The notes under the pieces: model-generated | Seen by the model: only the letters and a program-made list of their open reading frames with translations | Told to the model about the DNA's origin: nothing | The model's database searches: none | In this document: piece after piece, positions 40,905 to 47,937 of the stretch | How positions within the stretch are numbered: the stretch's first letter is position 1 | How the letters are laid out: the number at the start of each line of letters is the position of its first letter | Program-made: the position numbers and the translations under genes | Assembly: GCA_043814965.1 (NCBI GenBank) | Contig: JBDRJN010000032.1 | Coordinates: forward strand, 20,126-84,125 | Direction: 5' to 3' | Source of the DNA: Candidatus Omnitrophota bacterium | Lineage (GTDB): Bacteria; Omnitrophota; Gorgyraeia; Gorgyraeales; Gorgyraeaceae | Length of the DNA stretch: 64,000 nucleotides

Positions 40905-41186
40905 TTATAGCGCTATTATAAGCACTCTTAAGATAGAATCGTTCAAACTAAAAGATCTCTTTATCTTTGCTATTGCGCTAGTGTCGCCATGAAAATTCAT
41001 AAGATAATAAAAACCTTCTTTCTGCTTCTTCACAAGATAAGCTAGCCTCTGCTTGCCCAGGTCTTTCATATCATCCACGCTGCACTTATTCTTTGATACG
41101 ATCTCCTGGATCTGGCTTACTGTCTTCCCCAAGTCCTCGCTTGATAGATCCGGCTTCAATATAAACATCGCTTCGTAACTTTTCAC
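40905..41186 (-). CDS. rpsF: Ribosomal protein S6
   Basis: 93 aa. N-terminus MKSYEAMFILKPDL. Confidence 0.85.
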   Translation of the reverse strand: MKSYEAMFILKPDLSSEDLGKTVSQIQEIVSKNKCSVDDMKDLGKQRLAYLVKKQKEGFYYLMNFHGDTSAIAKIKRSFSLNDSILRVLIIAL

Positions 41187-41187
41187 A

Positions 41188-41769
41188 TTACCCCCTTATT
41201 TGATTTTTTATATTATACTTATTCATCGCGTTATCAATGCCTTCCTTTATCCAACATTCACAGGCTAAAGATGCCCTTGATAAGATACCAGGGATATCCT
41301 CTTTTTCCTTCTTTGTAAAACTATTAAGCACATAACTTGATGTATCTGAGATATCTTCCCTGCCGCGTATACCTATGCGCATCCTTGAGAAATCATTAGA
41401 ACCCAAACAAGTTATAACAGACCTCGTGCCTTTATGGCCAGCGTCACTGCCCTTAGCCTTTATCTTTATATCTCTAAATAAAAGCGCTATATCATCTACC
41501 ACGACCAAAAGATCTTTTAAGTCGAGCGAGAGCCAGTTAATAACGCTTCTTACTGAATTCCCAGAAAGATTCATAAATGTCTGGGGCTTGACTAAGTAAC
41601 AATTTTCCCCTTCTATGATACCTTCTCCTGCGCTGGCCTTAAACCTAATTTTGTTCTTGAATCTAATATTATTCTGCCTGGCCAATTCGTCCAAGACCAT
41701 AAAACCTGCGTTGTGCCGTGTAACAGCATACTCCTTCCCAGGATTCCCAAGGCCGACGATCAACTTCAT
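41188..41769 (-). CDS. pth: Peptidyl-tRNA hydrolase
   Basis: 193 aa with the MKLIVGLGNPGKEYAVTRHNAGF signature. Confidence 0.9.
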   Translation of the reverse strand: MKLIVGLGNPGKEYAVTRHNAGFMVLDELARQNNIRFKNKIRFKASAGEGIIEGENCYLVKPQTFMNLSGNSVRSVINWLSLDLKDLLVVVDDIALLFRDIKIKAKGSDAGHKGTRSVITCLGSNDFSRMRIGIRGREDISDTSSYVLNSFTKKEKEDIPGILSRASLACECWIKEGIDNAMNKYNIKNQIRG

Positions 41770-41782
41770 AATATATTTGTTA

Positions 41783-42493
41783 TTATTCGCCTTCTTTTTT
41801 GTTCTCTTCTTTGGAAGCCTCTTCTTCAGCCTCTTCCTTTTCTTTCTTCTCCCTTATCAATTCAGGCTCCTGCGTTTCTCCTTCTTGAGGCTCTGCTGCG
41901 ACTACGTCTTCCACTGTCTTAACATGTTCAACGCTAAAAGCAACCTCTTCGGCGTCGTTCAGTATCTTTACGCCTTCAGGTGCTTTAAGATCGCTTACAT
42001 GGATAAAATCCCCTATTTTTAGATTTGTTATATCTACCACTATCTTCTCAGGGATATTGGTAGGAAGGCACTCTATGTCTACTTCCCACAATACCTGCTG
42101 CAGCACTCCTCCATCCTGTTTTACGCCGATCGCTTCGCCCTTCGCTGTCAAACGGGTCTTTACTTCGATAGTATCCGTTAAAGAGATCTCCTGAAAATCA
42201 ACATGGAGAAATATATCTTTTATGGGGTCTTTCTGGATCTCTTTTATAATAACGGTCTTTTCTTTTTCTTTTTTAGCGCCTTTGATGTGCAGCTTCAAAA
42301 TGACATTTTCTCCTGCATCTGTATGAAGGGCCGTGGCCAGGGACTTTTTATCTATCTTTAGATTTAACGTCTCTTCCCCTTTTTTGTACACTACTGCTGG
42401 AACAAGCCCTTCAGAGCGTATCTTCTTGTTTTGCTCTTTCCCTTTTTCCTCTCTCGAACTTACATTCAGATCTACAAACTCCATTTTGATCAC
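41783..42493 (-). CDS. rplY: Ribosomal protein L25 / general stress protein Ctc. Long form with an acidic/Lys-rich C-terminal tail.
   Basis: 236 aa with an L25 N-domain and a beta-barrel C-domain. It keeps the conserved glmU-prs-ctc-pth synteny. Confidence 0.8.
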   Translation of the reverse strand: MIKMEFVDLNVSSREEKGKEQNKKIRSEGLVPAVVYKKGEETLNLKIDKKSLATALHTDAGENVILKLHIKGAKKEKEKTVIIKEIQKDPIKDIFLHVDFQEISLTDTIEVKTRLTAKGEAIGVKQDGGVLQQVLWEVDIECLPTNIPEKIVVDITNLKIGDFIHVSDLKAPEGVKILNDAEEVAFSVEHVKTVEDVVAAEPQEGETQEPELIREKKEKEEAEEEASKEENKKEGE

Positions 42494-42536
42494 TCCTTTT
42501 CAGATTTCTAGTTTATTCAATATATCAGATCGATCC

Positions 42537-43481
42537 CTAGTCAAACAGGCAGCTTACTGACTCTTCATTATGGATCCTTCTTATAGCCTCCGCCAAAAGA
42601 GGGGCTATAGACAATATCTTTATTTTTTTACTTGAACTCTTCCTGCCTAACGGTATAGTGTTGGTCACGAAGATCTTTTTTATTGGAGAGTCACTTATAC
42701 GAGCCATCGCAGGCCCAGACAAGACAGGATGTGTTATCGCAGCATATACTTCTTTGGCGCCTTTTTTCTTTAAGGCGCACGCTGCTTCTGCCAAGGACCC
42801 TGCGGTTGCTACTATATCGTCTATCAGGAGCACGTTTTTCCTCTTTATCTCGTTCTCCCCTAATATGTTCATAGCCTCCGTTTCCTCGCCGCTGATCCTG
42901 CGTTTATCAACTATAGCCAGAGGCACATCAAGCCTTTTTGCATAAGCCCTGGCCATCTTTATACCTCCTACATCAGGAGATACTACAACTAGGTTTTTAA
43001 ATTTTAACTTGTTTATATAGGTAACAAAAGTATTTACTGCATACAAGTGGTCCAGCGGGATATCAAAAAACCCCTGTATCTGGCCAGCGTGCAGATCAAC
43101 TGTCAATACCCTGTTAGCCCCTGCGGTAGTTATAAGATTTGCTACAAGCTTTGCGGTTATGGGTACTCTTGGCTGGTCTTTTCGATCTTGCCTGGCGTAT
43201 CCAAAATACGGGAGAACCGCTGTTATCCTCTTTGCGGATGCCCTCTTTAGCGCATCTATGAGGATCAAGAGCTCCATTAGATTGTTATTTGCAGGAGGGC
43301 ATGTAGATTGCACTATGAACACATCTTTCCCTCTTATGTTCTCTTCTATCCTCACTCTTGTCTCGCCTTCACTAAAAGCGCCTACAAAAGCCCTACCCAG
43401 AGGCATGTTAAGATATCTGGTGATCTCTTTTGCCAGCTCTGGATTAGAATTGCCTGTAAATATAGCAGCGGTCCTGTTCAT
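42537..43481 (-). CDS. prs: Ribose-phosphate pyrophosphokinase
   Basis: 314 aa with a PRPP synthetase signature (VVSPDVGG, DDIVATAGS). Confidence 0.95.
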   Translation of the reverse strand: MNRTAAIFTGNSNPELAKEITRYLNMPLGRAFVGAFSEGETRVRIEENIRGKDVFIVQSTCPPANNNLMELLILIDALKRASAKRITAVLPYFGYARQDRKDQPRVPITAKLVANLITTAGANRVLTVDLHAGQIQGFFDIPLDHLYAVNTFVTYINKLKFKNLVVVSPDVGGIKMARAYAKRLDVPLAIVDKRRISGEETEAMNILGENEIKRKNVLLIDDIVATAGSLAEAACALKKKGAKEVYAAITHPVLSGPAMARISDSPIKKIFVTNTIPLGRKSSSKKIKILSIAPLLAEAIRRIHNEESVSCLFD

Positions 43482-43492
43482 AATCTTGCTCC

Positions 43493-44758
43493 TTATTTAT
43501 TTTTATTCTTTTTTAATATTTTTGCGGGTATACCGACTACGGTTTTACCTGCAGGAACGTTCTTATTTTTAGTGATGACACTCCCTGCCCCTGTAGTAGC
43601 GCCCTTGCCTATTTTAACAGGTGCCACTAAAATACTGCCTGAACCAATAAACGCAAAATCATCTATGACAGTTTTATACTTATGGTTTCCATCATAGTTG
43701 GCAACTATAGTACCTGCTCCTATATTGACGGATTTTCCTATTACAGTGTCCCCTAAATAACACTGGTGGCTTATCTTTGTATTGCTTCCTACTCTTGTCC
43801 TGACTAGTTCAGCAAAATTGCCTATTTTTACATTTTTGTCAACTATTGTCCCTGAACGAAGCCTTGCGGATGGGCCTATTTTACACCCTTCGGCTATTTT
43901 AACACCGCTTTCTATAAAAGTATAGGGATATATAATAGTATCTTTTTTGATCTCAACCCCTTCTTCTATATATGTATTTGAAGGGTCTATTATCGTAACG
44001 CCTCCTTCCATAAGGCGTGACTCTATCCTATCCTTCACGATCTGGCCAGCTTTTATTAGATCCTTTCTTGTGTTTATCCCCAAAAACTCCTCTTCGTTAT
44101 CTGTAGAGACTGATTCGATGATACAGCTTGATCTGGACAATATTTCTATAACGTCTGTCAAATAATATTCTTGTTTTTTATTAAAAGGCTTTATCTTGCT
44201 AAGCGCGTCGAAAAGCACGTCCTTCTTGAAGCAATACACCCCCACATTGACCTCTTCTTTTACTTTGTCATAGATCTCCGCGTCTAGCTCTTCGACTATC
44301 TTGACGATCTTATTGTCTCCGGAACGCAAGATCCTACCATATCCAGTGGGATTTTTCAAGCAGCAAGTCAAAAGCGTACAATCTGCATTTCTGGATAGGT
44401 GCTTGTCTATTATTTTCTCTAATATCTCCTTTGTCAAAAGAGGGGTGTCTCCGTAAGACACCAATACAGATTCTATATCCTTATTTTTAAATACAAGCTT
44501 TTTGGCGCTCAAAACAGCATCTCCTGTGCCAAGCATCTCTTTTTGTATGGCGCATTCAAGCCCTGGTAAAGCAGCTTGTACTTCCCTGGCCTTATAGCCC
44601 ACGACCACTACGATATCCTTTATGCCTATTGATCTTATAGTATCTACAGAATACCCTATCATCGGCTTGCCGCATATAGGATGCAATACCTTTGGAAGAT
44701 CGGACTTCATCCTTGTGCCTTCTCCCGCAGCTAAGATAATTGATATAATTTTATTCAT
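43493..44758 (-). CDS. glmU: Bifunctional GlcNAc-1-phosphate uridyltransferase / GlcN-1-phosphate acetyltransferase
   Basis: 421 aa with an N-terminal nucleotidyltransferase (LAAGEGTRM) and a C-terminal LbH acetyltransferase. Confidence 0.9.
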   Translation of the reverse strand: MNKIISIILAAGEGTRMKSDLPKVLHPICGKPMIGYSVDTIRSIGIKDIVVVVGYKAREVQAALPGLECAIQKEMLGTGDAVLSAKKLVFKNKDIESVLVSYGDTPLLTKEILEKIIDKHLSRNADCTLLTCCLKNPTGYGRILRSGDNKIVKIVEELDAEIYDKVKEEVNVGVYCFKKDVLFDALSKIKPFNKKQEYYLTDVIEILSRSSCIIESVSTDNEEEFLGINTRKDLIKAGQIVKDRIESRLMEGGVTIIDPSNTYIEEGVEIKKDTIIYPYTFIESGVKIAEGCKIGPSARLRSGTIVDKNVKIGNFAELVRTRVGSNTKISHQCYLGDTVIGKSVNIGAGTIVANYDGNHKYKTVIDDFAFIGSGSILVAPVKIGKGATTGAGSVITKNKNVPAGKTVVGIPAKILKKNKNK

Positions 44759-44782: not shown

Positions 44783-44856
44783 TGGCTGCCCGGCTAGGAT
44801 TCGAACCTAGAAACTCAGCTCCAAAAGCTGATGTGTTACCATTACACTACCAGGCA
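44783..44856 (-). tRNA. tRNA-Gln (anticodon UUG)
   Basis: A minus-strand cloverleaf. The anticodon stem-loop is cagcTTTTGGAgctg, the T-arm GGTTCGAATCC, and the 3' end is encoded as GCCA. Confidence 0.8.
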
Positions 44857-44879: not shown

Positions 44880-45299
44880 TTAGTATTCTTCGGAAGCCCC
44901 TGAAACTATAGGGCCCTTTTTTCTCTCAGTCTCATAAGCTGCCAATACCTTCTTTTGGATCATATCCCTGCATTCAGCAGTTATAGGATGGGCTATATCC
45001 TTATGCTCTGATTGTCTGGCATCAGCCTGTTCTTCAGGCGTATGGGTCTCTCTTTGGGTAACCGGCAAGCCTGCCCCGCAAACATTGCAAAACTTGCTCC
45101 TGACTTCATTCTTGTGAGAACATTTTGGGCAAGCATATTTCATCTTCCTGGACGGCATCGCTACAAAAAGACCACCTTTTCCTTCTATGATCTTGATGTT
45201 CCTGACAACAAAAACATTGTCTATGGTTATAGTAGCATATGCCTTTAGCTTGTTGTTCAACCCTTCCTTAGGAAATATCCTGATCTCGGTTATCTCCAT
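44880..45299 (-). CDS. spoVG: SpoVG-family protein carrying an inserted 4-Cys zinc ribbon
   Basis: The SpoVG core runs MEITEIRIF...GGLFVAMPSRKM ... DIAHPITAECRDMIQKKVLAAYE. Between the two halves sits a ~45-aa insert containing CPKC...CNVC. Confidence 0.8.
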   Translation of the reverse strand: MEITEIRIFPKEGLNNKLKAYATITIDNVFVVRNIKIIEGKGGLFVAMPSRKMKYACPKCSHKNEVRSKFCNVCGAGLPVTQRETHTPEEQADARQSEHKDIAHPITAECRDMIQKKVLAAYETERKKGPIVSGASEEY

Positions 45300-46170
45300 A
45301 GATGCCTCCTTTGTAAGTTGTAGCCACTAATACATCCAAAGTTGTTTCATTAGATAATCGCTTTGATATACCAAGCGCCTTCTCTCTTTGCGTAACTGTA
45401 CAAAAAACCGAAGGCCCGCTCCCGGATAAGTGCCCGGGAGTATGAGCTACGTTCAAAAATAATGACTTTATCTCACAAACTTTTTCTCTGTAAACACCCA
45501 AAGACCCTTCAAAAGAATTAAAATAATTTTCATTTACTAAAGATATATCTTTTTTTTTCAAAGCATCCGCTAGCTTGTCAATATCTTTTCTATCAACTGC
45601 TTTTTCAGAGTCATCAAACCTTTCGTATGCCTCAGCGGTTGATATAGAAATATCTGGTTTTATGATCACATGGGATAATGTGTGGCCTATATCTAATGGC
45701 TCCAGGATCTCTCCTGTTCCGCTGCCCATGGCAAACGGATAGTCCATCATAAAAAATGGTACGTCCTTTCCTAAACTTCCTGCTATTGAAAAAAGCCTGT
45801 CTTCCGGAATGCCTAGTTTGAGTATTTTATTGATTGATCTCAACGCTGTGGCTGCATCGCTAGAGCCTCCGCCCAGTCCAGCTGAAACAGGGATATTCTT
45901 TTTAATATCTATTTCCAGGCCTATATCGACTCCTGCCTCTTTCAATAATATACTAGCGGCCTTGTAGACAATATTATCTTTTCCCCCAGGGCATGTAGGC
46001 GGTATCACATTTACTTTGATGCTATTGCCTTTTACTCTGATAAAAATCTCGTCTAAAAGGTCTATTTTTTCAAAGAGCGTTTTTATATTATGAAAACCAT
46101 CCAGCCTTTTCTCTAAAACATCAAGATATAAGTTCAGTTTCGCTGGTGCGTATAATTTTATCGCTTGCAT
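45268..46170 (-). CDS. ispE: 4-diphosphocytidyl-2-C-methyl-D-erythritol kinase
   Basis: 300 aa of the GHMP kinase family (PAKLNLYLDV, GLGGGSSDAAA). Confidence 0.85.
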   Translation of the reverse strand: MQAIKLYAPAKLNLYLDVLEKRLDGFHNIKTLFEKIDLLDEIFIRVKGNSIKVNVIPPTCPGGKDNIVYKAASILLKEAGVDIGLEIDIKKNIPVSAGLGGGSSDAATALRSINKILKLGIPEDRLFSIAGSLGKDVPFFMMDYPFAMGSGTGEILEPLDIGHTLSHVIIKPDISISTAEAYERFDDSEKAVDRKDIDKLADALKKKDISLVNENYFNSFEGSLGVYREKVCEIKSLFLNVAHTPGHLSGSGPSVFCTVTQREKALGISKRLSNETTLDVLVATTYKGGIYGDNRDQDIS

Positions 46171-47105
46171 CCTTTTCTCTTTATAACACGCTTTGCTGCT
46201 TCTTTTATATCTTCTGCTGTAAGGCCGAACAGTTTGAAAAGTTCTTTTGCTGAACCAGATTCCCCGAACTTGTCTTTCACTCCAATAAATTCGATCGGTA
46301 CAGGATAGTTCTCGGCCAAGATCTCGCTTACAATGCTGCCAAGCCCTCCGAACACCGAATGCTCTTCCGCAGTCACTATGGCATTAGTCTCTCTTGCGGC
46401 CTTGATCACAGCTTCTTTATCGATCGGCTTGAGAGTGTGTATATTTATAACCTTGCTGGAAATACCTTCTTTTTTCAATAGATCATGCGCCATCAATGCC
46501 TCGCATACCTCATTGCCGCAAGCCATAATAGTCACGTCTTCCCCTTCTCTCAATATATATGCCTTTCCTATTTCAAAAGGGTCTTCTGGTCTTGTGAGAA
46601 CAGGGCTTCCGCTCCTGCCGAGCCTTATATAGACCGGGCCATTATGCGAAGCGCATTTAATGGTCGCCTTTTTAGCCTCCAGCCAATCGCAAGGGACAAT
46701 GACAGTCATATTCGGCAAAACTCTCATAAGCGCTACTTCTTCTATTGCCTGATGAGTAGGGCCATCCGGGCCTACAGATATGCCGCCATGGGTACCTATG
46801 ATCTTCACATTTAGATTCATATAAGCTACTGAAACCCTTATCTGGTCCCAGGCCCTTCCTGCCGCAAAGACACCGAATGTGCACGCAAAAGGGGTCTTTC
46901 CGGAAAGCGCAAGGCCGCTAGCCGTAGATATCATGTCCTGCTCGCTTACTCCCATAGAAAAAAATCTCTCTGGAAACTTATCCTTAAACCATCCTGCCCT
47001 TGTAGATTCTGTCAGATCTGCCGAAAGGACAACTATATCTTGCCTCTTTTCTCCTAATTCTACAACCCCTTCGCCAAAACCATCTCTTGTCGGTCTATCA
47101 GTCAT
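46158..47105 (-). CDS. Transketolase, C-terminal subunit (split form)
   Basis: 315 aa containing the pyrimidine-binding and C-terminal transketolase domains. Confidence 0.9.
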   Translation of the reverse strand: MTDRPTRDGFGEGVVELGEKRQDIVVLSADLTESTRAGWFKDKFPERFFSMGVSEQDMISTASGLALSGKTPFACTFGVFAAGRAWDQIRVSVAYMNLNVKIIGTHGGISVGPDGPTHQAIEEVALMRVLPNMTVIVPCDWLEAKKATIKCASHNGPVYIRLGRSGSPVLTRPEDPFEIGKAYILREGEDVTIMACGNEVCEALMAHDLLKKEGISSKVINIHTLKPIDKEAVIKAARETNAIVTAEEHSVFGGLGSIVSEILAENYPVPIEFIGVKDKFGESGSAKELFKLFGLTAEDIKEAAKRVIKRKGCKR

Positions 47106-47106
47106 A

Positions 47107-47937
47107 TTAGCAACCTGTCTTTTCGAGTTCTTTCAGTGCCTTCTGTAGCTCTTCATCCGTAGGAGCCATACCATGGAACCTATTACAATTTTCAATAAAA
47201 GATACCCCTTTACCTTTTACAGTATGAGCAAGTATTACAGTAGGCTGCCCTTTTATGGTATCAGCCTTGTCATACGCGCTCATCACCTCTTTCAAGTTGT
47301 GTCCGTCTATCTCTATGACATGCCAGCCGAATGCCTTCCACTTTTCATCAAGCGGCTCTATATTTTTTACTTCTTCTGTTCTCCCATCTATCTGAAACTT
47401 ATTGAAATCCACTATACCGCATACATTGTCAAGCTTATAATGAGCCGCTGTCATGGCAGCTTCCCATATCTGCCCTTCGTCCAACTCCCCGTCGCCCATA
47501 GCACAATATACCTTTTTTGTTTCTTTGTTCAATCTCGCGCCTAAAGCAAAACCATTGGCAATAGAAAGCCCCTGCCCCAAAGAACCGCTTGAAACCTCTA
47601 TGCCTGGAAGCCCTCTTTGTGGATGGCCCTGAAGCCGAGTGCCCAACTTTCTTAACGTACAGAGTTCTTTCTTGCCAAAAAAATTCATATGCGCGAGTGT
47701 CGCGTACAACGCAGGACAGCCATGGCCTTTTGATAGAATAAATATGTCCCGCGTATTGCACAAGGGTTTATCCGGCTCGCATTTAAATTTATAAAAATAA
47801 AGTCCTACCAGTATCTCTACAAGAGAAAGCGATCCCCCCGTGTGCCCAGAACCAGCACAGTTAAGCATCTTAAGTATATCTATCCTTATCTCTCTTGCTA
47901 TATTTTCTAAAGTCTTCGTGGATGGGCTTGTTTTCAT
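47107..47937 (-). CDS. Transketolase, N-terminal TPP-binding subunit (split form)
   Basis: 276 aa with the GHTGGSLS and GDGELDEGQ TPP motifs. Confidence 0.9.
   Translation of the reverse strand: MKTSPSTKTLENIAREIRIDILKMLNCAGSGHTGGSLSLVEILVGLYFYKFKCEPDKPLCNTRDIFILSKGHGCPALYATLAHMNFFGKKELCTLRKLGTRLQGHPQRGLPGIEVSSGSLGQGLSIANGFALGARLNKETKKVYCAMGDGELDEGQIWEAAMTAAHYKLDNVCGIVDFNKFQIDGRTEEVKNIEPLDEKWKAFGWHVIEIDGHNLKEVMSAYDKADTIKGQPTVILAHTVKGKGVSFIENCNRFHGMAPTDEELQKALKELEKTGC

What the first reader, a model, noticed from the sequence alone, without database searches (positions are those of the whole stretch)
44880..45299. SpoVG with a 45-aa zinc-ribbon insertion
The protein keeps the SpoVG core on both sides (…GGLFVAMPSRKM and DIAHPITAECRDMIQKKVLAAYE). 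It carries an inserted loop, KYACPKCSHKNEVRSKFCNVCGAGLPVTQRETHTPEEQADARQSEHK, with a C-P-x-C ... C-x-x-C arrangement. This occurs where canonical SpoVG has a short loop of ~9 residues. SpoVG is a nucleic-acid-binding regulator, so a zinc-ribbon module would change or extend its binding mode. The gene sits in the conserved ispE-spoVG-glmU-prs-ctc-pth context, so it is the orthologue, not a paralogue.
Basis: seen in the sequence. Interest (0 to 1): 0.5.

Follow-up and report, generated by a model that had tools for sequence, protein, structure and literature searches.

The report
SpoVG with an inserted zinc ribbon
This gene encodes the ordinary bacterial regulator SpoVG with a small four-cysteine zinc-ribbon module spliced into its nucleic-acid-binding loop. 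The insertion is real and strongly conserved, but it is the standard form of SpoVG throughout Omnitrophota and Planctomycetota and was noted in 2012 as a Planctomycetes marker, so it is no oddity of this genome.

Summary
ORF 44880-45299 (-) encodes a 139-aa SpoVG. Its core (residues 1-52 and 98-125) is interrupted by a Cys4 ribbon (C57, C60, C71, C74) plus a variable linker. There are 48 residues where S. aureus SpoVG has 7.

It is not an artefact. All 498 homologues with recognisable anchors carry the ribbon with fixed C-x2-C-x10-C-x2-C spacing. The ribbon is about as conserved as the core and always basic (mean net charge +4.2).

The gene is the syntenic orthologue (ispE-spoVG-tRNA-Gln-glmU-prs-ctc-pth). 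The window is from Candidatus Omnitrophota. The same homologous insert is universal in the sampled Planctomycetota (at least 587 GTDB species loci).

Gupta et al. 2012 already reported this 32-36 aa insert as a 'Planctomycetes-specific' signature indel, without recognising a zinc ribbon and without Omnitrophota data.

By sequence the ribbon belongs to Zn_Ribbon_1/DZR. The AlphaFold model superposes at 0.7 Å on solved RanBP2/NZF fingers, but the ZRANB2 RNA-reading residues are not conserved.

The ribbon directly follows the R51-K52 doublet that matches the S. aureus residues essential for DNA binding. My best explanation is an added electrostatic nucleic-acid-binding lobe. That is inferred, not shown.

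Verdict: a new member of a known kind, of moderate-to-low interest.

The parts
44880..45299 (-). spoVG coding sequence (139 aa plus stop): SpoVG with an internal zinc ribbon
   Evidence: ORF list. Pfam SpoVG 101.9 bits. 100% identical to NCBI MAG protein P0001, 'septation protein SpoVG family protein [Candidatus Omnitrophota bacterium]'.
45305..45311 (-). Shine-Dalgarno sequence AAGGAGG, 5 nt upstream of the ATG
   Evidence: Read directly from the sequence. Homologues all start MEITE, which supports this start codon.
45144..45299 (-). N-terminal SpoVG core, residues 1-52 (four beta-strands), ending ...GLFVAMPSRK
   Evidence: phmmer to 2i9z/2i9x/2ia9, residues 1-52. Model strands E3-10, E18-26, E30-40, E43-47. 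Mean majority-residue fraction 0.77.
45144..45149 (-). Basic doublet R51-K52, equivalent to S. aureus K50-R51, which are essential for DNA binding
   Evidence: Alignment to staphylococcal SpoVG. R51 is invariant and K52 at least 90% conserved. Mutagenesis in Jutras et al. 2013, PMC3688583.
45063..45143 (-). Zinc-ribbon module, residues 53-79 (MKYACPKCSHKNEVRSKFCNVCGAGLP). The Cys4 core is C57, C60, C71, C74 (nt 45075-45131 span C57 to G75).
   Evidence: Pfam Zn_Ribbon_1/DZR. Cys and spacing invariant in 498/498 sequences. Model pLDDT 72-78 with beta-hairpins. Superposes at 0.7 Å on Zn-bound NZF/RanBP2 fingers. Net charge +5.
45009..45062 (-). Variable linker, residues 80-97 (VTQRETHTPEEQADARQS), predicted partly helical (88-99) with low confidence
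   Evidence: Conservation 0.41 against 0.70-0.77 for ribbon and core. In that analysis the linker was measured from the residue after the ribbon's CG to the residue before DIAHP, and it is 17-37 aa across homologues. pLDDT 58-63.
44925..45008 (-). C-terminal SpoVG core, residues 98-125 (EHKDIAHPITAECRDMIQKKVLAAYETE). It includes the alpha-helix, where AECRDM corresponds to the S. aureus specificity stretch SDMRQE.
   Evidence: phmmer second block 97-126. Helix 108-128 in the model. Specificity stretch from PMC3688583.
44883..44924 (-). Short, poorly conserved C-terminal tail (residues 126-139, ending EEY). Homologues often have much longer disordered tails.
   Evidence: Alignment A1. pLDDT below 50 for 132-139. 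Tail comparison.
45268..46170 (-). Upstream gene ispE. Its stop overlaps the spoVG start by 32 nt.
   Evidence: NCBIfam TIGR00154 188.4 bits, cut-off 138.7. ORF coordinates. ispE-spoVG adjacency is also found in Planctomycetota loci L082 and L013.
44783..44856 (-). tRNA-Gln (UUG) between spoVG and glmU
   Evidence: ARAGORN. Rfam tRNA 66 bits.
40905..44758 (-). Downstream conserved block: glmU (43493-44758), prs (42537-43481), L25/ctc (41783-42493), pth (41188-41769), rpsF (40905-41186)
   Evidence: Pfam. NCBIfam GlmU 456 bits, cut-off 450. The same order occurs in Omnitrophota loci L001, L002 and L084.

Best explanation
The gene is the orthologous spoVG of a Candidatus Omnitrophota bacterium. 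SpoVG is a small nucleic-acid-binding global regulator.

In a common ancestor of the Omnitrophota and Planctomycetota versions, a roughly 24-residue Cys4 zinc ribbon plus a flexible linker was inserted into the short loop that follows the beta-strand ending in the basic doublet (R51-K52 here). That loop precedes the DIAHP motif and the C-terminal helix. These are the two elements shown by mutagenesis in S. aureus and Borrelia SpoVG to provide DNA backbone contacts and sequence specificity.

The ribbon most likely binds one Zn2+ through C57, C60, C71 and C74 and folds into a RanBP2/NZF-like two-knuckle ribbon. It displays four conserved basic side chains (K59, K63, R67, K69; net charge +4 to +5) next to the SpoVG binding groove. 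It would therefore act as an extra, largely electrostatic, nucleic-acid-contacting lobe that raises affinity or changes the footprint for RNA or DNA.

Shown here: the architecture, its conservation, orthology, the fold-level model and the taxonomic distribution. Inferred: zinc binding, nucleic-acid contact by the ribbon, and any regulatory consequence.
For: Identity and orthology:
- Pfam SpoVG 101.9 bits.
- Synteny ispE-spoVG-glmU-prs-ctc-pth in the window and in relatives.

Ribbon:
- Zn_Ribbon_1/DZR hits. DZR matches 84 of 86 and Zn_Ribbon_1 64 of 86 members across both phyla.
- C-x2-C-x10-C-x2-C in 274/274 and 498/498 sequences.
- C57, C60, N64, R67, C71, C74 and G75 are invariant across an 86-sequence alignment of both phyla.
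- The model ribbon has pLDDT 72-78 and superposes on Zn-bound Trabid NZF1 (0.7 Å over 27 columns), Nup153 ZnF3 (0.7 Å), eL40 (0.8 Å) and ZRANB2 ZnF2-RNA (1.9 Å).

Selection:
- Ribbon conservation is 0.70 against 0.74-0.77 for the core and 0.41 for the linker.

Nucleic-acid role:
- The insertion lies immediately after the R51-K52 doublet. This matches S. aureus K50-R51, and K50A or R51A abolishes DNA binding. The insertion also lies shortly before the helix stretch that sets specificity (PMC3688583; alignment).
- Ribbon net charge averages +4.15 (range +1 to +8, n=503), with K/R conserved at ribbon positions +2, +6, +10 and +12.
- Profile hits include the RNA-bound ribbons bL33, eL40, Nop10 and RPB12.
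- SpoVG itself binds RNA and DNA (PMC4959528, PMC11086051).
Against: - No experiment or complex model places the ribbon on nucleic acid.
- Model coordinates and PAE were not available, so the ribbon's orientation relative to the groove and the dimer is unknown, and the linker is low-confidence.
- The nearest solved sequence relatives (DZANK1 and a 'putative regulatory protein') and the best structural matches (NZF and Ran-binding fingers) are mostly protein-binding modules.
- The residues that read GGU in ZRANB2 are not conserved. The stacking Trp17 corresponds to variable E65, and Arg20 corresponds to S68. A finger with K,S at positions 19 and 20 fails to bind RNA.
- Positive charge could equally serve to bind an acidic protein or the protein's own acidic C-terminus.
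Confidence: 0.5

Rival explanations
1. The ribbon is a protein-protein interaction module. It would dock SpoVG onto a partner such as an RNase, RNA polymerase, the ribosome or a protease adaptor, or bind the protein's own acidic C-terminal tip as an autoinhibitory latch. Nucleic-acid binding would be left to the SpoVG core.
For: - The best structural matches are ubiquitin- or Ran-binding NZF/RanBP2 fingers.
- The best sequence-profile match is the DZANK1 double zinc ribbon.
- The ZRANB2 RNA-reading residues are absent.
- Homologues carry conserved extreme C-terminal acidic-hydrophobic tips (DIEL, DLEF, xFGAGIL), which are typical of short linear interaction motifs.
Against: - The NZF ubiquitin-binding 'TF' dipeptide after the second Cys is absent (S-H-K here), and bacteria lack ubiquitin and Ran.
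- No conserved hydrophobic surface patch is evident, and the conserved exposed residues are all basic.
- No conserved co-occurring partner gene was seen beyond housekeeping synteny.
- The insertion site is exactly at the nucleic-acid-binding pocket.
Confidence: 0.25
2. The Cys4 site is a zinc- or redox-sensing switch. Oxidation or zinc loss would unfold the ribbon and alter SpoVG activity, as in Hsp33 or RsrA-type switches (the comparison is from general knowledge).
For: - The four cysteines are invariant.
- The module sits where unfolding would perturb the binding loop.
- An additional cysteine, C110, is at least 90% conserved in the specificity helix in alignment A4.
Against: - No sequence feature distinguishes a regulatory Zn site from a structural one.
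- The non-Cys residues of the ribbon (N64, R67, F70, N72, G75 and the basic residues) are equally conserved. That argues for a folded functional surface rather than only a metal sensor.
- C110 is replaced by Phe in many Planctomycetota.
Confidence: 0.1
3. The insert is a functionally neutral, structurally tolerated lineage marker (a signature indel) that merely decorates a surface loop.
For: It was published purely as a taxonomic marker (PMC3444138). The linker half of the insert is variable in sequence and length.
Against: Ribbon conservation equals that of the core over sequences that are only 42-51% identical overall. The spacing and 7 invariant residues hold across two phyla and 498 sequences. 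This is incompatible with neutrality.
Confidence: 0.1
4. The insert is an assembly or frameshift artefact, or a gene fusion peculiar to this contig.
For: None found.
Against: - The frame is single and uninterrupted, with a Shine-Dalgarno sequence and an ATG.
- An identical protein is present in an NCBI MAG.
- Hundreds of independent assemblies from NCBI, JGI, ENA and Logan carry the same architecture.
Confidence: 0.01

Closest known systems
Canonical SpoVG (PF04026; B. subtilis, S. aureus/S. epidermidis, Listeria, Borrelia; PDB 2ia9, 2i9z, 2i9x)
   Same: - Same GLFVAMPS(R/K)(K/R) strand with the essential basic doublet.
- Same DIAHP motif and C-terminal helix.
- Same ispE...spoVG-glmU-prs-ctc-pth neighbourhood.
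   Different: - There are 48 residues instead of 7 between MPSxx and DIAHP: a Cys4 ribbon plus linker.
- Phe in 'EFRD' is replaced by an invariant His ('EHKD').
- It fails the NCBIfam SpoVG equivalog cut-off (94 against 108 bits) because the insert splits the match.
Planctomycetes SpoVG 'conserved signature indel' (Gupta, Bhandari & Naushad 2012, Front Microbiol 3:327, PMC3444138)
   Same: - Same insertion site.
- Homologous insert sequence: invariant C, C, N, R, C, C, G across both phyla.
- The Planctomycetota spacer is 43 aa, a 36-aa net insert, exactly as published.
   Different: - The window is from Omnitrophota (OP3), which that paper did not sample, so the insert is not Planctomycetes-specific as claimed.
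- The insert here is about 5 aa longer, in the linker.
- The paper never mentions zinc or cysteine, and no function was proposed.
- Planctomycetota forms add long RG-rich tails that are absent here.
Zn_Ribbon_1 / DZR 'FCxxCG' zinc ribbons (PF13240, PF12773; e.g. DZANK1, PDB 11xu)
   Same: - Best sequence-level family.
- The ribbon profile hits DZANK1 at E=2e-14, for example against CPKCGASNHLSARFCGSCG.
- DZR matches 84 of 86 members.
   Different: Here a single ribbon is embedded inside another domain's loop, rather than lying at a terminus or in tandem. The window protein scores just below the gathering thresholds when the whole protein is scanned.
RanBP2/NZF-type zinc fingers (PF00641; Trabid NZF1, Nup153, ZRANB2 ZnF2-ssRNA 3g9y)
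   Same: - Identical C-x2-C-x3-N-x6-C-x2-C spacing.
- Predicted fold superposes at 0.7-1.9 Å.
- Arg at the ZRANB2 R19 position and Asn after the third Cys are conserved.
   Different: - No Trp two residues before the first Cys.
- No aromatic at the base-stacking position 17.
- Ser or Ala replaces R20.
- There is no NZF 'TF' motif.
- The Pfam score is 14-17 bits against a cut-off of 27.

Membership tests
SpoVG (Pfam PF04026) | Profile HMM score above the curated gathering threshold over the full domain | tested here: met
   101.9 bits against 29.6, profile positions 1-81 of 82. 86 of 86 aligned homologues match.
SpoVG (Pfam PF04026) | SpoVG fold (beta-sheet plus C-terminal helix) superposable on solved structures | tested here: met
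   [not shown]
SpoVG (Pfam PF04026) | Conserved basic doublet required for DNA binding, and the DIAHP-helix element | tested here: met
   R51-K52 and D101-I-A-H104-P are present. R51, A103 and H104 are invariant. Functional role taken from PMC3688583.
SpoVG (NCBIfam NF009749 equivalog 'septation regulator SpoVG') | Score above the curated equivalog cut-off | tested here: not met
   94 bits against a cut-off of 108, with the match split into two stretches by the insert. This is consistent with NCBI's more cautious name, 'SpoVG family protein'.
SpoVG orthologue (as opposed to paralogue) | Conserved neighbourhood ispE - spoVG - glmU - prs - ctc - pth, and a single copy locally | tested here: met
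   Neighbours identified by Pfam and NCBIfam. No second copy in the 64-kb window. Same order in L001, L002 and L084. The whole genome was not available to exclude a distant paralogue.
SpoVG | Binds DNA and/or RNA | not testable with these tools
   Requires EMSA, anisotropy or CLIP experiments.
Zn_Ribbon_1 / DZR zinc ribbon (PF13240 / PF12773) | Two CxxC knuckles with ribbon spacing and the 'FCxxCG' signature | tested here: met
   C57-P-K-C60 ... F70-C71-N-V-C74-G75. Spacing is fixed in 274/274 and the ribbon is present in 498/498 sequences.
Zn_Ribbon_1 / DZR zinc ribbon (PF13240 / PF12773) | Profile score above the gathering threshold | tested here: inconclusive
   - Whole protein: 22.8 bits (cut-off 25) and 23.3 bits (cut-off 27.3).
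- Insert scanned alone: Zn_Ribbon_1 25.4 bits, which passes the cut-off of 25; DZR 26.2 bits, below 27.3.
- At E<=1e-3, DZR hits 84 of 86 and Zn_Ribbon_1 64 of 86 homologues.
Zn_Ribbon_1 / DZR zinc ribbon (PF13240 / PF12773) | Tetrahedral coordination of one Zn2+ by the four Cys | not testable with these tools
   There is only indirect support. The model ribbon superposes at 0.7-0.9 Å on Zn-bound fingers with the same spacing. Metal analysis is needed.
RanBP2-type zinc finger (PF00641) | Consensus W-x-C-x(2-4)-C-x3-N-x6-C-x2-C (PMC6384913) | tested here: not met
   The Cys and Asn spacing is met exactly. The Trp two residues before the first Cys is absent; that position is D, E, V, A or T. Consensus taken.
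RanBP2-type zinc finger (PF00641) | Profile score above the gathering threshold | tested here: not met
   14.1-16.6 bits against 27. Only 10 of 86 homologues reach E<=1e-3. No RanBP2 RNA-binding finger appears among the 69 PDB profile hits at E<=10; Vps36 NZF scores 0.36.
RNA-binding subclass of RanBP2 fingers (ZRANB2-like) | Aromatic residue at position 17 for base stacking, and the Arg19/Arg20 pair that reads GG | tested here: not met
   hhalign is ungapped: W17 aligns with E65 (a variable column), R19 with R67 (conserved) and R20 with S68 (Ser or Ala). Residue roles are from PMC6384913.
RanBP2/NZF fold class | Three-dimensional similarity of the ribbon | tested here: met
   Trabid NZF1 5af6_I: rmsd 0.7 Å, TMt 0.89, probability 1.00. 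Nup153 ZnF3: 0.7 Å. ZRANB2 ZnF2: 1.9 Å. E-values are 0.5-3 because the match is short, and it rests on a model with pLDDT 72-78.
Planctomycetes SpoVG signature indel (Gupta et al. 2012) | A 32-36 aa insert at this conserved SpoVG site | tested here: met
   Same site and homologous sequence. The Planctomycetota spacer of 43 minus the canonical 7 gives 36 aa. The window's spacer of 48 minus 7 gives 41 aa.
Planctomycetes SpoVG signature indel (Gupta et al. 2012) | Restricted to the phylum Planctomycetes | tested here: not met
   The window protein and all named close homologues are Candidatus Omnitrophota. So the insert is shared by at least two phyla.

The most novel reading that the evidence does not exclude
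The ribbon-bearing SpoVG may be a distinct 'PVC-type' RNA-binding hub rather than a decorated SpoVG.

In this reading a zinc finger of RanBP2-like fold sits in the binding groove. In Planctomycetota it is joined by RG/RGG-rich disordered tails and a conserved C-terminal docking tip. That combination parallels eukaryotic FUS/EWS/TAF15 (ZnF plus RGG). The protein might organise RNA-protein assemblies, or couple zinc or redox state to global post-transcriptional control, in lineages with unusual cell biology.

The shared insert would also be a rare genomic character specifically uniting Omnitrophota with Planctomycetota.
Probability: 0.12. Interest if true: 0.65.

Novelty: new member of a known kind. 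Interest (0 to 1): 0.3.

Why it matters
SpoVG is widespread and pleiotropic, and its biochemical mode of action (DNA or RNA, and how specificity arises) is still debated. Two large, poorly studied phyla use a version in which a conserved, basic zinc ribbon is built into the binding loop. That gives a natural 'gain-of-module' variant in which ribbon deletion and charge mutants should be informative.

Some planctomycetes are reported to be genetically tractable (from general knowledge), so this could be tested in vivo.

There is also a modest systematics point. An indel published as Planctomycetes-specific is shared with Omnitrophota. That either supports a specific relationship between these phyla or documents an ancient spoVG transfer.

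Finally, it explains why curated SpoVG equivalog models under-score these proteins.

Tried and rejected
1. **RanBP2-type membership.** The spacing suggested it, but Pfam scores are below cut-off, the Trp is missing, a PDB profile search found DZR-type ribbons instead, and the ZRANB2 RNA-reading residues are not conserved. I kept it only as a fold-level resemblance.

2. **A third host phylum.** I searched with 11 divergent representatives. Every named hit was Omnitrophota except one 'Chlamydiota bacterium' MAG. That contig has the same hisG-TPR-ispE-spoVG-glmU-prs order as the window, so it is most likely mislabelled. Contigs labelled Actinomycetes or Alcaligenaceae are likewise treated as binning or label errors.

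3. **First AlphaFold run.** With a shallow alignment of 35 sequences at 64% identity or more, it gave pLDDT 55-60 for the insert and was not used for the ribbon. A two-phylum alignment improved it.

4. **AFDB50 fold search.** It was unavailable, so I could not list UniProt organisms with this architecture.

5. **Model coordinates and PAE.** These are not exposed, so Cys-Cys distances, ribbon orientation and dimer context could not be measured.

6. **The listing of cluster members.** It gave no organism names for the long-tailed forms. A genome-contig scan resolved them as Planctomycetota.

7. **Paralogue search.** A search inside the window found none. The rest of the genome was not available.

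8. **Rfam and promoter/terminator scans.** These showed nothing regulatory specific to spoVG.

9. **Literature searches.** 'SpoVG + zinc ribbon' and 'SpoVG + Omnitrophica' found no description of the ribbon.
Full report
**1. Observation**

A Shine-Dalgarno sequence, AAGGAGG, lies 5 nt upstream of the ATG (sequence), and all homologues begin MEITE. Both support this start codon.

Pfam SpoVG (PF04026) covers residues 1-123 and profile positions 1-81 of 82 at 101.9 bits, against a cut-off of 29.6. phmmer against solved SpoVG structures (2i9z, 2i9x, 2ia9) aligns residues 1-52 and 97-126 as two blocks. Those blocks are only three residues apart in the crystal sequences.

The distance from 'MPSxx' to 'DIAHP' is 48 residues here and 7 in S. 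aureus SpoVG. The net insertion is therefore about 41 aa.

The inserted segment scores against zinc-ribbon models when scanned alone: Zn_Ribbon_1 at E=1.2e-5 and 25.4 bits, and DZR at E=9.3e-6.

**2. Not an artefact, and under selection**

The protein is 100% identical to an NCBI MAG protein from Candidatus Omnitrophota. The 120 best 90%-identity clusters all have the same architecture.

In a 35-sequence alignment, C57, C60, C71 and C74 are invariant, as are N64, R67, S68, K69, N72 and G75.

An exhaustive HMMER search of 1.84 billion 50%-identity representatives found 4,566 SpoVG-family representatives. Of the best 150, 149 carry CxxC...CxxC at this site. The exception is a protein of tandem canonical SpoVG domains.

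Across every sequence gathered that has recognisable anchors, 498 of 498 have the ribbon. The spacing is C-x2-C-x10-C-x2-C without exception.

In an 86-sequence alignment spanning both host phyla, the mean majority-residue fractions are:

| Region | Fraction |
|---|---|
| N-terminal core | 0.77 |
| Ribbon | 0.70 |
| Linker | 0.41 |
| C-terminal core | 0.74 |

**3. Orthology**

The neighbours are split transketolase, IspE, tRNA-Gln, GlmU, Prs, L25/Ctc, Pth and S6. IspE scores 188 bits on TIGR00154 against a cut-off of 138.7. GlmU scores 456 bits against a cut-off of 450.

No second SpoVG is present in the window. The same gene order occurs around ribbon-bearing spoVG in other Omnitrophota contigs. 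In Planctomycetota the ispE-spoVG adjacency is kept while the downstream genes differ.

**4. Distribution and prior art**

Most of the 150 representatives are 200-520 aa long. The best 80 were Phycisphaerae, Pirellulales, Thermoguttaceae, Gemmataceae, Planctomycetaceae and similar groups, plus one Omnitrophota.

A profile search returned 8,000 of 8,000 candidates at E<=1e-3, with Gemmataceae among the named hits.

Divergent short forms were all named Omnitrophota, apart from one 'Chlamydiota' MAG. That contig is syntenic with this window and is probably mislabelled.

[quoted passage not shown] The Planctomycetota spacer of 43 aa, minus the canonical 7, gives exactly 36.

That paper contains no mention of zinc or cysteine, and names OP3 only in its introduction. 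I found no paper that links SpoVG with a zinc ribbon or with Omnitrophica.

So the insert itself is known. Its zinc-ribbon nature appears only as unremarked precomputed Pfam hits, and its presence in Omnitrophota contradicts the published specificity.

**5. What kind of ribbon**

The consensus from 262 unique segments is K-[LMI]-x3-C-P-[KR]-C-x-x-[KR]-N-x-[VLI]-R-[SA]-[KR]-[FY]-C-N-[ED]-C-G-x-x-[LI]-P.

A profile of the ribbon, searched against PDB sequences, finds the following:
- the DZANK1 double zinc ribbon, E=2e-14
- a bacterial 'putative regulatory protein', E=1e-3
- knuckle-level matches to bL33, eL40, Nop10 and RPB12
- no RNA-binding RanBP2 finger

Pfam matches per member are DZR 84 of 86, Zn_Ribbon_1 64 of 86, and RanBP 10 of 86.

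| Structure | rmsd | Notes |
|---|---|---|
| Trabid NZF1 | 0.7 Å | 27 columns, TMt 0.89 |
| Nup153 ZnF3 | 0.7 Å | |
| Archaeal eL40 | 0.8 Å | |
| ZRANB2 ZnF2-ssRNA | 1.9 Å | 28% identity |

An ungapped hhalign against ZRANB2 ZF2 puts the variable E65 at the base-stacking Trp17, R67 at Arg19, and S68 at Arg20. According to PMC6384913, W17 stacking and the R19/R20 hydrogen bonds are critical, and a finger with K,S at positions 19 and 20 does not bind RNA.

Conclusion: by sequence this is a Zn_Ribbon_1/DZR ribbon. By fold it is RanBP2/NZF-like. It is not a ZRANB2-type sequence reader.

**6. Mechanism**

Jutras et al. (PMC3688583) showed that S. aureus K50 and R51 (Borrelia R53 and R54) are each essential for DNA binding, and that a six-residue stretch of the C-terminal helix (SDMRQE) sets specificity. 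In the present protein these are R51-K52 and A108-M113.

The ribbon begins one residue after the doublet. The polypeptide returns to the core just before DIAHP and the helix.

The ribbon's net charge is +5 here, and averages +4.15 (range +1 to +8) over 503 sequences. K/R is conserved at four ribbon positions, whereas the linker is roughly neutral.

SpoVG binds both RNA and DNA (PMC4959528, PMC11086051).

The most economical reading is that a zinc-stabilised basic lobe enlarges the nucleic-acid-binding surface. I put this at about 0.5.

The rivals are:
- a protein-docking or autoinhibitory module (0.25). The structural neighbours are mostly protein binders, and homologues have conserved acidic C-terminal tips.
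- a zinc or redox switch (0.1)
- a neutral marker (0.1). This is contradicted by the conservation.
- an artefact (about 0.01)

**7. Verdict**

The finding is real and correctly interpreted. However, it describes the normal SpoVG of two phyla, and the insert has been in the literature since 2012 as a taxonomic marker.

What is added here is the explicit Cys4 ribbon assignment with fold-level support, its placement at the mapped binding site, its conserved charge, and its extension to Omnitrophota.

I rate it a new member of a known kind, with interest 0.3.

Noticed in passing
Homologues P0127-P0270 (not in the window); compare window residues 126-139, nt 44883-44924: Planctomycetota ribbon-SpoVGs are 200-520 aa long. 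They have RG/RGG-rich disordered tails, a recurring 'EYDSLIADL(R/K)' motif and an extreme C-terminal acidic + (P/A/G)FG(A/E)G(I/L)(L/V/F) tip, sometimes repeated internally. Many Omnitrophota forms end in DIEL or DLEF. The window protein has only a 14-aa tail ending EEY. These look like short linear docking motifs of unknown partner.
   Followed up: partly
window 45268-45299: The ispE stop codon lies 32 nt inside spoVG, so the two ORFs overlap, with a strong Shine-Dalgarno sequence for spoVG inside the end of ispE. This suggests translational coupling. A 10-nt overlap is also seen in L084, but there is none in L001.
   Followed up: partly
window 44783-44856 (-): A tRNA-Gln(UUG) gene is wedged between spoVG and glmU inside the otherwise protein-coding conserved block.
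   Followed up: no
window 46158-47937 (-): Transketolase is encoded as two separate genes: an N-terminal TPP-binding half (47107-47937) and a pyrimidine-binding plus C-terminal half (46158-47105). The same split occurs in relatives L001-L003.
   Followed up: no
window 41783-42493 (-): Ribosomal protein L25/Ctc carries a long Lys/Glu-rich C-terminal tail (…EKKEKEEAEEEASKEENKKEGE).
   Followed up: no
P0175 (representative library): A 388-aa protein made of about four tandem canonical SpoVG domains without any ribbon. It was the only one of the 150 best representatives that lacks the Cys4 motif.
   Followed up: no
L084; L040, L054, L064, L065: MAG records labelled 'Chlamydiota', 'Alcaligenaceae' and 'Actinomycetes' carry Omnitrophota- or Planctomycetota-type ribbon spoVG. 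L084 has the same hisG-TPR-ispE-spoVG-glmU-prs order as the window. These are probably taxonomic mislabels or bin contamination.
   Followed up: partly
window 44880-45299: The NCBIfam SpoVG equivalog model scores 94 bits, below its 108-bit cut-off, because the insert splits the match. This probably explains the generic database name 'SpoVG family protein' for this whole clade.
   Followed up: yes
window residue C110 (nt 44970-44972): A fifth cysteine, inside the helix stretch that sets DNA specificity in S. aureus, is at least 90% conserved in the alignments used, but it is Phe in many Planctomycetota. Its significance is unknown.
   Followed up: no
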